A DNA stretch of 34,711 nt, from contig JWZX01003209.1 in assembly GCA_001275005.1 (NCBI GenBank), positions 1-34,711 on the forward strand, given 5' to 3'. A program made the translations under genes and the position numbers. This DNA comes from Chrysochromulina tobinii. Its lineage: Eukaryota. Below the pieces are notes generated by a model that was given only the letters and a program-made list of their open reading frames with translations, was not told where the DNA came from and made no database searches. This document shows, one piece after another, positions 8,818 through 15,505 of this stretch (its first letter is position 1; the number at the start of each line of letters is the position of its first letter).

Positions 8818-11800
8818 ATGACGACGTCCAATGTGCTGAGGCGCCTCAACCGATTCTGCGGTTCAGATTGGACGCGAACGAAGGGCTTTCTTAGGCGCCG
8901 CCTGACGAACAAGCTGCGCTGGACTTTCAAGCTGTGGTATCTCGTCGACGTACGCACCGTTCTCGTCACAGGGATGGTGCAGGCTGCTATCATCTGCATA
9001 GGCTGCTATCTTGGTGTACGCGAAGTGCAGAAAGATGCCTTCGACTATCCGAGGATGCAGCTCATCGGTCAGGCCGTGTACCGCTTCGGCATCCTGCTCA
9101 TCTGCTGCTTCGGCGAGCACTACTTTGCACGCCGAGCCATGCGCAACGAGAACCATGCCGATCTGATTGCGGTCGGGCTGCTGTCCGTGCTCCTCGGCGG
9201 CGCAATGCTGGCAGAGTCGCTTGCGCCGCGCCATGCGACCGCCATCCACCCGCCGCTGTGGGTGGGAGTGGGCTGCGCTCTCATCTCCGGCCTGCTCCTC
9301 TTCGTGTCTGCGAGCATGTACCGCCGGTTGGGCTGGCGGCAGCTGATGCGTTTCGGCTCCGCGCCCGCGAAGCGCGTGATGTACGTGCGCCTGAAGCAGC
9401 ACGAGACGTTGGTTACGCTCGACCTGCTCTGCATGATGGCTCTCGGGCTAGCGACGGTTCGTACGATCCTGTTCGCGCTGGACGAGGAACGGTCTGGCGC
9501 GTGGCAGTTGTACGTCTCGTGTGCGGCGTGGGTGCTCGGTGCGGCCTTGGACCTGTATCTCAAATGGCTCTCTGTGCACGAGAAGAAGGTGCGCACACTT
9601 GTGTGCGCCATCCTCGGCTGCCTGCCGCGCGGCTGGTTCCTCTACCTCTCTGTGTTGGTCTTCGCCGGCAACCCCACAGATCCCATCGCAGGGGCGCCGT
9701 CACGGGCGCCCTCGCCCTCGCCGGTGGTCACGAGCTCGAATGCGAGCTCGACGGTGGAGATCGATGAGATGATGAGCTCGAATACGAGCTCGACGGTGGA
9801 GATTGATGAGATGATGGCGGCCTCGCAGCTGGCCTTGGCGATCGTCTCGGCTTGCGTACGCCTCGCCGTCACCCTCTCGTCCTTCGTCGTCGCCCTCTTC
9901 GTGTACGGGCACGGCGTGAGTCTCTTTGGCGACGAGAAGGACCTTCTCCATCGTGTCGCGTCGATCCAAAGTGGCTTGGTGGCGCCGGAGCAGTCCGCCG
10001 ACGCCGACGGCCTACCCTCCCGCTGGCGCACGCTGCCGGAGGAGGCGCGCAAGGCCATAGAGTGCGTCGTGCGTGGCAAGGTGCTCGACGTCGCGGTGTT
10101 TGAATCCGACGAGACGATGGACGACGGCGCGGACGCGAGCGCCGAGACGAGCGCCGAGGCGACTGCCGACGCGGCGACGAGCAGCGGAATGAGCGCAGCG
10201 GCACGCGCCTTTGTGCAGTACTCACCGGAGCTCGAGACGCTCCGATGGTCGTGGACGGATTACATTGGCGTCGACCAAGTGGTTGATGTGCGCATCAAGC
10301 TGCGTGATGGACAGGGAGACGGCGAGACGGGGCCCAAGACGGCGACGGGGCAGCGCGGCTCCATGCAAGACTTAGTCAGCGCCGTCTCGCCCGCCAAGGT
10401 GGCGGCCGCCGCGACGGCCGCGCTCGGGCGCAAGTGGTGGGCGAGGGAACACGTGGCACGCGACCAGACGCCGAATGGAGAGTCGCCAGAAGGTCTGGAG
10501 ATGGGCTTCGAGCAGACAGTGCAGACGATGCAGGCCCTCGGATTGCCTCCGCCGCGGCTTGAGGAGGGCGTGCTGGGAGCGCGAGCCGACGGCCTAAGGC
10601 AGCAGCACGCTCTCAAGCGGATGGTCAGGATCGCGTCCGCCCAGATGAGCCAGCGCCCCGTCGTGCTTCAGATCGTATGCCATTCGAGCCTGCGAGGGCA
10701 GCGGCATACCGCCAAAGGCGGCGCGCTCAGGCTTCAGACGCTCTTCCTCGCGTCCAAGGACGCCGAGACCCTCTTTTACTGGTATGTGGGGCTGCGCCTG
10801 CTTGTGCTCGAGCACCGCGCTCACCGGCCGCCGCTCACGAGCGCACAAGTCCATTGGGTGCGCAACGTCTTCGACGCGCTCGATCGCAACTGCCACGGGT
10901 TCGTCAATCGCGCCAGCGTGCCACGACTGCTCGCGGCCGCGAATACCTCGGCGAGCGTGCCAATACCCAAGGGCCTCATGCACCCCAGTGCCAATCTGAG
11001 CTTGCCGTTTGTGCAACGACTGCTTGCCAACGTAGGCACAGCCCCCAAAGCAACCACATCTCCCCAGATTGGCACTGATGACCTCGGATTGGCACCGATG
11101 ACCTCTGAGTAATTCCATCATCAGGTCCTCACGGCCAAGAGCTCACCGCTCACGGCGCTCTTCGAGCGGTACGCCTCATGTCCCGAGGGGATGAGCAAGG
11201 AGGACTGGCTGCGCTTCTGTCGCGAGCAGCAGCATGACGAGGATACCCTCAGCTGCGAGGCTGCGTTTGAGGACGTGCTTGGCGCCTCAGAGCCAGCACC
11301 GCTCTCAAGGCCTCCCACGCAGCACGTCCTCATGGACTTACCATTTGCTTGGTCCGACGTCTTCCCCGACGACGACGGTTGCAGCTCACAACAGCTCTCA
11401 CCTCGCTGCTCAGAACGAGGCATTCCAGTCTCCCCTGACTCCAGTCGCTGCTCAGAACGAGACGCAGACAGCAGCAGCCCGGCACGACGCTCGGCGCGAG
11501 TTTCCGCACGATCCTCGGCACGACTCTCAGGCACGCGAGTTTCCTCGGCACGACTCTCAGGCACGCGAGTTTCCTCGGCAGCAGACGCAGACAGCAGCAG
11601 CTCCGCACGATCCTCGGCACGACTCTCAGGGCGCTTCTCGGCACCCGACGCTACCCGTCCACTAGCACCCCGTAGGCCCCGAGCCCCTGACCCCTCCCCT
11701 CAGCTGACGGCCGTGCTGCGCGCACGGTACCTCACGCCTCTCCATTTCCACACGCTCATGCTTGACCCGCATTCGAATGGTCCAGTCGCTCGCGAGCTCG

Positions 11801-15428: not shown

Positions 15429-15505
15429 TCGAGCTCGACGCGACGATCGATGATGGCCAGGTGCAACTCAAGGTTCTGTTGCGGCCCGCCATCTGCGAGG
15501 AGTAG
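8818..15505 (+). CDS. Multi-pass membrane domain fused to phosphoinositide-specific phospholipase C (PH-EF-X-Y-C2); 3 exons (8818-11031, 11125-15121, 15192-15505), ~2174 aa
   Basis: X box PLAHYFVAASHNTYL..GCRSVELDVWDG..PIVTHGRT..YPVSLSLE..RILIKGK. Y box RVFPSASRVASSNMDP..W.AGVQLVALNLQT..GYVLKP. C2 NGLNPVF..LRPGYRSVQL..SLLVHIE. EF hands VFDALDRNCHG and LFERYA..MSKEDWLRF..QQ. PH end LASKDAETLFYWYVGL. About 8 hydrophobic helices in the first ~370 aa. Two GT-AG introns join the three ORFs in frame. Confidence 0.85.
9732..9816 (+). repeat. 42-nt coding tandem duplication (SSN[A/T]SSTVEIDEMM x2)
   Basis: Two adjacent near-identical copies (2 mismatches) in a loop between hydrophobic helices. Confidence 0.9.
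11032..11124 (+). other. Spliceosomal intron (93 nt, contains an in-frame stop)
   Basis: AAC|gtaggc...catcag|GTC, phase 0; gives a continuous EF-hand region LLAN|VLTAKSSPLTALFERY. Confidence 0.75.
11400..11630 (+). repeat. Nested coding tandem repeats (30-nt SARLSGTRVS units, DADSSS units)
   Basis: ctcggcacgactctcaggcacgcgagtttc x2, plus repeated gacgcagacagcagcagc and cgctgctcagaacgag. Confidence 0.85.
12376..12592 (+). repeat. 217-nt intragenic dispersed duplication, copy 1 (CRIB/PBD-like module)
   Basis: Matches 14248-14464 without gaps; I count 7 mismatches. Confidence 0.95.
14248..14464 (+). repeat. 217-nt intragenic dispersed duplication, copy 2 (CRIB/PBD-like module)
   Basis: Matches 12376-12592. 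Confidence 0.95.
15122..15191 (+). other. Spliceosomal intron (70 nt)
   Basis: G|gtatgc...ccccacag|GT, phase 1; completes the C2 terminal strand RHGTRIRLCSLLVHIE. Confidence 0.85.
15395..15424 (+). repeat. (AGC)10 microsatellite, poly-Ser in the spliced PLC frame
   Basis: Perfect trinucleotide run in exon 3. Confidence 0.9.

What the first reader, a model, noticed from the sequence alone, without database searches (positions are those of the whole stretch)
8818..15505. Phospholipase C fused to an ~8-TM membrane domain: a possible receptor/sensor-PLC in one polypeptide
Seen: about 8 hydrophobic helices (~8950-9920) lie in the same uninterrupted ORF as the PH-like and first EF-hand segments. 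These splice to intact X/Y/C2 domains, with SHNTY His, VELD Glu and THG His retained. Established: canonical PI-PLCs (delta/beta/gamma/epsilon, plant PLCs) are soluble peripheral enzymes, while receptor-enzyme fusions such as oomycete GPCR-PIPKs exist. Inference: TM motifs (RRAMRNEN, LGWRQLMRFGSAPAKRVMY..HETLVTLD, YGHGV) recall the fungal UPF0658-type 8-TM family. This could be an integral-membrane PLC directly coupled to a sensing domain, an architecture I do not know to be described.
Basis: partly seen in the sequence, partly recalled or inferred. Interest (0 to 1): 0.85.

Follow-up and report, generated by a model that had tools for sequence, protein, structure and literature searches.

The report
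Phospholipase C with eight membrane helices
A haptophyte alga has one spliced gene that joins a predicted eight-helix membrane domain to a complete phospholipase C, an enzyme normally found as a soluble protein; distant relatives keep the same join, so this is likely a membrane-embedded signalling enzyme whose membrane part may act as a built-in sensor.

Summary
One three-exon gene (8818-15505, +) encodes 2,174 aa: an 8-helix membrane domain, a split PH-like domain, EF-hands, PI-PLC X and Y (Pfam 3e-48, 2e-22), C2 and a likely coiled coil. RNA contigs splice intron 11032-11124 in 3 of 8 runs laid (3 of 6 RNA runs) and tile from the TM part to X, though no single contig spans both. The fusion is conserved. 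P0152 carries homologous TM+PH+EF+X in one ORF at about 25% TM identity. P0004, from the same PLC clade, has 8 hydrophobic segments before a complete PLC, but its TM homology was not significant. Neighbouring genes are at least 90% identical to Chrysochromulina parva proteins. The TM model is confident (pLDDT 82), is predicted N-in/C-in, and matches no PDB fold, GPCRs included. ESM Atlas points to DUF7789 (0.90); Pfam HMMs did not hit. Catalytic residues are kept, apart from Tyr to Phe in Y. Best reading: an integral-membrane PI-PLC whose TM domain both anchors and regulates it. The sensor role is inferred and untested. Ten literature searches found no multi-pass PI-PLC.

The parts
8818..11031 (+). 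Exon 1 coding part: basic N-terminus, 8-TM domain, split PH-like domain, first EF-hand pair
   Evidence: ORF; RNA contigs begin at 8786-8816, separate from the deeper-covered upstream gene whose contigs stop by 8762
8950..9906 (+). Eight predicted transmembrane helices (aa 45-363), predicted N-in/C-in; conserved motifs DxRT, E..RA..E..DL, PPxW, GWR..M.FG; outer loop 7-8 with N-x-S/T sequons
   Evidence: AlphaFold; alignment; Lys/Arg and sequon counts; ESM Atlas DUF7789 0.90
10012..10812 (+). PH-like domain broken by long low-complexity inserts; C-terminal strand and helix match a PLC PH-EF profile, the N-terminal half is recognised by eye and by conservation in homologues
   Evidence: single-sequence AlphaFold of this region failed (pLDDT 40)
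10850..11256 (+). EF-hand array, split by intron 1
   Evidence: collinear with P0152 across the junction
11032..11124 (+). Intron 1, 93 nt, GT..AG, contains in-frame TAA
   Evidence: joint in RNA runs X1, X5, X7; same ends in L001-L003
11125..15121 (+). Exon 2: second EF-hand pair, X, ~480-aa low-complexity X-Y linker, Y, insert, most of C2
11824..12243 (+). PI-PLC X domain with both catalytic His and the Ca-binding Asn/Glu/Asp/Glu
   Evidence: Pfam PF00388 3e-48; PDB alignments
13690..13990 (+). PI-PLC Y domain (VSFSE, RVFP with Tyr to Phe, ALNLQT)
   Evidence: Pfam PF00387 1.9e-22
14683..15235 (+). C2 domain with a clade-specific insertion shared with P0003 and P0004; spans intron 2
   Evidence: alignment; BLAST; no Pfam C2 hit
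15122..15191 (+). Intron 2, 70 nt, GT..AG
   Evidence: joint in RNA runs X1, X3
15192..15505 (+). Exon 3: end of C2, Q/E/R-rich likely coiled coil (also in P0004), stop
12376..12597 (+). 222-nt in-frame duplication, copy 1 (X-Y linker); copy 2 at 14248-14469 (Y-C2 linker), 96% identical
   Evidence: also in L001-L003

Best explanation
The gene is spliced into one frame that joins a predicted eight-helix membrane domain to a complete PI-phospholipase C, which likely cleaves phosphoinositides to inositol phosphate and diacylglycerol while the membrane domain likely both holds it in one membrane and controls its activity. Shown: gene structure, domain order, retained catalytic residues, conservation of the join in divergent homologues. 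Predicted: eight helices with both ends in the cytosol, which puts PH-EF-X-Y-C2 next to the substrate-bearing leaflet. Inferred: Ca2+-dependent PIP2/PI4P hydrolysis, by family. Inferred and untested: the helices replace the targeting job of the insert-broken PH domain, and an input at the membrane (outer ligand, lipid state, tension or osmotic change) passes through the conserved cytosolic loops 2-3 and 4-5 to lift inhibition by the very long X-Y linker, with no G protein needed in between.
For: Splice joints. RNA contigs tile across TM8 to PH (X3 9562-10125, X2 9915-10591), PH to EF across the intron (X1 10162-11837) and into X (X4 11595-12575), at similarly low depth. P0152 has TM+PH+EF+X in one 961-aa ORF and scores 130 bits on a TM profile that did not include it. 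Of the 6 divergent hits that reach TM8, 5 continue into the same post-TM linker (P0143, P0144, P0149, P0152, P0154). P0004 has 8 hydrophobic segments before a full PLC, shares the C2 insertion and groups with the window (91/89). Lys/Arg are 23 of 96 inside vs 6 of 87 outside, with the same bias in all 9 homologues counted. Eight helices with conserved polar residues are more than an anchor needs (inference). All 3 indels in allele L003 keep the frame.
Against: No single contig spans TM to X. No assay, localisation or ligand. Outer loops are short or variable and most conserved residues are cytosolic, which does not suggest an outer ligand pocket. No receptor or channel fold was found. P0004's TM region does not match the family profile above shuffles (365 of 499 scored as high; hhalign E 0.32). 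Two searches among long proteins found no full-length fusion. P0142 ends just after TM8. One RNA contig (X4, 10801-11070) runs 39 nt into intron 1.
Confidence: 0.5

Rival explanations
1. Passive anchor: the 8-TM domain only sorts and tethers an active PLC to one compartment (Golgi, scale-forming vesicle or plasma membrane); control comes from Ca2+ and the X-Y linker as in PLC-delta.
For: UPF0658 proteins are labelled 'Golgi apparatus membrane protein' (passages). The PH domain is broken by long inserts. There is no conserved outer surface. TM sequence diverges quickly.
Against: An anchor needs one helix. Eight helices with conserved D/R/E/W/G positions are kept at 25-30% identity. The link to UPF0658 is itself only a lead.
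Confidence: 0.3
2. The TM domain is a transporter, channel or lipid-handling unit, and the PLC is coupled to its flux (for example Ca2+ or substrate supply).
For: Even helix number, a possible 4+4 repeat seen by eye (RA..E in loop 2-3, W[AL]..E in loop 6-7), and a conserved Glu near the end of TM2.
Against: The repeat was not significant (hhalign E 0.27). No transporter or channel fold at E<=0.001. The dimer prediction did not run.
Confidence: 0.1
3. Catalytically weak or dead PLC that acts as a membrane scaffold or IP3/PIP2 binder, like PRIP.
For: Tyr to Phe in R-x-Y-P, His to Arg in E-x-H-C-S, and a ~480-aa X-Y linker with a recent duplication.
Against: Both catalytic His, the Asn, the acidic Ca ligands, both Lys, Ser and Arg are all kept. 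P0004 keeps Tyr and His.
Confidence: 0.06
4. Two products: a TM+PH+EF protein ending at the intron stop and a separate soluble PLC starting at Met761, as database gene calls have it.
For: Gene callers store the two halves separately (clusters of P0141 and P0001). The X4 contig enters the intron.
Against: Exact splice in 3 RNA runs. The split would cut the EF-hand array in half. P0152 has no stop there.
Confidence: 0.04

Closest known systems
Eukaryotic PI-PLC, delta-type core (PH-EF-X-Y-C2; PF00388, PF00387)
   Same: Full domain order and catalytic residues; PDB matches to PLC-epsilon, gamma, beta, delta and zeta at E 4e-53 to 2e-44.
   Different: Eight predicted TM helices at the N-terminus, an insert-broken PH, a ~480-aa X-Y linker and a C2 insertion. 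Of 120 listed PLC hits only 1 (P0004) had 4 or more hydrophobic segments before X. Known PI-PLCs are peripheral proteins (own knowledge).
GPCR-bigrams of oomycetes and other protists (GPCR-PIPK, -INPP, -AC, -PDE, -TKL; PMC6033456, PMC5784254)
   Same: N-terminal multi-pass domain fused to a cytosolic signalling enzyme; GPCR-PIPKs occur in Emiliania and Chrysochromulina; mode of action also open.
   Different: The membrane part has 8 helices, is predicted N-in, and is not a GPCR fold (best GPCR TM-score 0.13-0.19). The enzyme is PLC, which is not among the bigram types listed in the part read.
DUF7789 (PF25044) / UPF0658 'Golgi apparatus membrane protein' (equivalence recalled)
   Same: Language-model features 0.90, 206 of 256 shared, similar length; P0004's TM region also points there at 0.81-0.82, a lead only.
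   Different: No Pfam HMM hit. The Atlas clusters are 270-370-aa stand-alone proteins of fungi, microsporidia and animals; here the domain is fused to an enzyme.

Membership tests
Eukaryotic PI-PLC | X and Y boxes above Pfam cut-offs | tested here: met
   163.5 and 80.1 bits vs cut-offs 23.1 and 28.8
Eukaryotic PI-PLC | Two catalytic His plus Asn/Glu/Asp/Glu Ca ligands and Lys/Lys/Ser/Arg substrate residues | tested here: met
   SHN, ELD, THG, LE, IKGK, SFSE, RVFP aligned; role labels recalled from PLC-delta1
Eukaryotic PI-PLC | Tyr of R-x-Y-P that stacks on inositol | tested here: not met
   Phe in the window and P0003, Tyr in P0004; a conservative change
Eukaryotic PI-PLC | EF-hand array before X and C2 after Y | tested here: met
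   own profile E 4e-11; C2 by alignment, though no Pfam EF or C2 hit
Eukaryotic PI-PLC | Folded PH domain | tested here: inconclusive
   C-terminal part matches; single-sequence model pLDDT 40
Eukaryotic PI-PLC | Ca2+-dependent phosphoinositide hydrolysis | not testable with these tools
   needs an assay
GPCR-bigram | 7-TM GPCR fold with outer N-terminus | tested here: not met
   8 helices, basic N-terminus, no Foldseek match at E<=0.001
GPCR-bigram | Cytosolic catalytic domain C-terminal to the TM domain in one chain | tested here: met
DUF7789/UPF0658 | Match to the family HMM | tested here: inconclusive
   0 of 13 members hit at E<=10; whether PF25044 is in this Pfam copy was not confirmed
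DUF7789/UPF0658 | Language-model similarity to family clusters | tested here: met
   0.90, 206 shared features; recognition value 1874 is below 2300, so weak evidence
DUF7789/UPF0658 | Two 4-TM repeats (recalled feature) | tested here: inconclusive
   best local hit in register but E 0.27
DUF7789/UPF0658 | Structural superposition on a family member | not testable with these tools

The most novel reading that the evidence does not exclude
An undescribed family of single-chain receptor-phospholipases C in haptophytes: a non-GPCR 8-TM sensor of the DUF7789/UPF0658 type gates an attached PLC directly, making IP3/DAG without G proteins or kinases. This would also point to a signalling role for the orphan DUF7789 proteins of fungi and animals.
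Probability: 0.3. Interest if true: 0.9.

Novelty: new variant of a known kind. Interest (0 to 1): 0.72.

Why it matters
PI-PLCs are known as soluble enzymes recruited to membranes. A conserved polytopic PLC would be a new way to wire IP3/Ca2+/DAG signalling, in a major phytoplankton group where a PLC inhibitor suppresses coccolith formation (PMC7563939, passages). The fusion also gives a testable lead for an orphan membrane family, and a single-chain system in which coupling from membrane domain to enzyme can be assayed. Gene callers split the gene at intron 1, which would hide the architecture in databases.

Tried and rejected
No genome is held for the window, so paralogues were not counted. 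Word-seeded searches for full-length TM fusions among long proteins found none (0 of 6,418 candidates; 0 of 7,974); the tool calls this weak evidence. The metagenome scan returned only 3 loci, all 99-100% identical. P0004's TM region did not match by BLAST, HMM or hhalign, so it counts as same architecture and same PLC clade, not as proven TM homology. The internal 4+4 repeat was not significant. No PDB sequence match to the TM profile, no Foldseek match in PDB or viral models, no phage match. The wider VIA structural search and the dimer prediction never ran, so a distant fold match and oligomer state stay open. The PH model was unusable. The Pfam complex I 21-kDa hit (21.5 bits, below the cut-off of 25) was rejected as hydrophobic noise. 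The contig joint 12384 to 14257 in X1 was rejected as an intron: it is non-canonical and explained by the 222-nt repeat. Earlier-findings look-ups were empty.

Full report
Gene structure. Two long + strand frames, 8803-11112 and 11113-15453, lie in the same phase, separated by one TAA. RNA contigs skip 11032-11124 (GT..AG, 93 nt) in runs X1, X5 and X7, which is 3 of the 6 RNA runs laid; the X7 side is only 20 nt. X2, X3 and X4 show no joint, and one X4 contig runs 39 nt into the intron. Two runs of unrecorded type (X15, X17) read through both the intron and the upstream intergenic stretch, as DNA would. RNA contigs of the upstream gene stop by 8762 and those of this gene start at 8786-8816. 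A second intron, 15122-15191, is skipped in X1 and X3. I laid 8 of the 18 runs listed; the RNA runs carry separate study codes but look like one campaign, so they are not fully independent. The spliced CDS gives 2,174 aa with no internal stop. No single contig spans TM to X, but overlapping contigs from different runs bridge every step. Three near-identical genomic copies keep the splice sites, and the most distant (L003, 42 substitutions) has 3 indels, all in frame.

Organism. Three neighbouring proteins cluster at 90% or more with named Chrysochromulina parva proteins, and the window carries a pyrenoid-shell and a RETICULATA-like gene. It is a Chrysochromulina-like haptophyte.

Enzyme part. 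Pfam gives PI-PLC-X 3e-48 and PI-PLC-Y 1.9e-22; 23 PDB PLC sequences match at E<=1e-20. Both catalytic His, the Asn, the acidic Ca ligands, both Lys, Ser and Arg are kept; R-x-Y-P has Phe and E-x-H-C-S has Arg (residue roles recalled from PLC-delta1). A profile from 20 canonical PLCs matches the end of the PH domain and the EF-hands, aa 638-782, straight across the splice. C2 aligns by sequence and carries an insertion. The X-Y linker is about 480 aa of low complexity and shares a 222-nt duplication with the Y-C2 linker.

Membrane part. AlphaFold on a 13-row alignment gives eight long helices at pLDDT 81.7, pTM 0.77. Basic residues favour N-in/C-in in the window (23 of 96 vs 6 of 87) and in all 9 homologues counted. 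The long outer loop 7-8 has sequons in the window and in 4 of the 5 counted homologues that span it, with P0152 lacking one. This places the PLC in the cytosol. Conserved positions (D44, R46, T47, E100, R106, A107, E111, D115, L116, W148, G172, W173, R174, M177) lie mostly at the cytosolic face. There is no PDB sequence or fold match; GPCRs score TM 0.1-0.2. ESM Atlas ranks DUF7789 clusters first (0.90, 206 of 256 features, below the tool's recognition level), while Pfam hit none of 13 members. Membership is therefore a lead. The DUF7789 = UPF0658 link is recalled.

Conservation of the fusion. A full HMMER scan of 1.84 billion representatives with the TM domain gave 14 hits. One is a ~90% relative and seven are fragments that end before TM8 or cover a small part. 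Of the six divergent hits that reach TM8, five continue into the same post-TM linker and P0142 does not. P0152 (961 aa) has TM, PH, EF and the start of X in a single ORF, collinear with the spliced model, and scores 130 bits on a profile built without it. Separately, the X-domain search returned P0004 (1,932 aa), the only one of 120 listed hits (of 599) with four or more hydrophobic segments before X. It shares the C2 insertion and C-terminal coiled-coil-like tail and groups with the window, P0003 and P0152 (91/89; the three without it 95/94; 22 rows). Against my reading: its TM region does not match the family profile above shuffles, so it is either a very diverged member or a different TM domain on the same PLC clade; the Atlas puts it near DUF7789 at only 0.82. 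All these homologues are unnamed records, so their taxonomy is not shown. Two searches among long proteins found no further full-length fusion. Database gene calls split this gene into a ~725-aa TM piece and a ~1,230-1,420-aa PLC piece.

How it likely works. The protein is inserted as a polytopic membrane protein with the PLC on the cytosolic side and cleaves phosphoinositides in a Ca2+-dependent way (inferred from family). The membrane domain fixes its location. I think it as likely as not that it also regulates the enzyme, because eight helices with conserved polar cytosolic motifs exceed what anchoring needs. A passive anchor (0.3), a transport unit (0.1), a dead enzyme (0.06) and two separate products (0.04) are the rivals. 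No ligand or stimulus is identified.

Literature. Ten full-text searches turned up no description of a multi-pass PI-PLC. DUF7789 has no mention. In one search the 30 papers listed of 45 matched only 'GPCR-PLC', by their titles in the pathway sense; 15 were not seen. The library lacks most subscription papers, and no supplements were read, so a mention in a genome paper's tables is possible. Seen: PMC6033456, first third of the text (bigram types, none PLC); PMC5784254, passages (GPCR-PIPKs in Emiliania and C. tobin); PMC9694693, passages (oomycete PI-PLC architectures, none with TM in the passages shown); PMC7563939, passages (19 X-domain genes in the Emiliania background set, 'transmembrane' absent, U73122 suppresses coccoliths); PMC10406608 and PMC12794819/PMC13170357, passages (UPF0658 named as a Golgi membrane protein; a fungal deletion affects germination); PMC12716839, term search only (no PLC).

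Verdict. Observation confirmed; architecture real and conserved; sensor function unproven. New variant of a known kind, interest 0.72.

Noticed in passing
window 12376-12597 and 14248-14469: 222-nt in-frame duplication (96%) shared by the X-Y and Y-C2 linkers; it causes a false contig joint 12384 to 14257.
   Followed up: partly
window 14199: RNA contigs of X1, X2 and X4 all leave the window here with the same foreign continuation; unexplained (repeat shared with another locus, allele or alternative transcript).
   Followed up: no
window 11032-11112: One X4 RNA contig enters intron 1; retention would give a ~764-aa TM+PH+half-EF protein with no enzyme. The stretch 11067-11108 also attracts partial matches from elsewhere in X7, X15 and X17, like a short repeated element.
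   Followed up: partly
window 8848: The window has A where six runs that cover the place read T; allele or assembly error, no effect on frame.
   Followed up: no
P0002: EukProt protein of 1,121 aa with two complete X-Y-C2 units in tandem, an unusual double PLC.
   Followed up: no
P0152 residues ~40-62: An extra hydrophobic helix followed by basic residues precedes the 8-TM domain, which would give an outer N-terminus in this homologue.
   Followed up: no
P0008: 1,261-aa PLC with about 480 unannotated residues before the PH-like region, starting with a C2-like stretch (seen by eye).
   Followed up: no
window 7396-8394 (+): Upstream 332-aa ORF with no Pfam match; its 3' region has RNA contig depth of about 50-170 against about 5 for the PLC gene.
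   Followed up: no
window 5077-7254 (-): Membrane-anchored protein with an SRCR domain (Pfam 1e-25), proline-rich linkers and repeated unannotated extracellular domains.
   Followed up: no
window 30500-31321 (-), 18588-19568 (-), 19624-21168 (+), 22750-24006 (+), 24402-26585 (-), 27957-29381 (-), 3445-4461 (+): Pyrenoid-shell protein, RETICULATA-like protein, pantothenate kinase, PP2A B''-like EF-hand protein, NHL-repeat protein, amino-acid transporter and AstE/AspA-like enzyme.
   Followed up: partly
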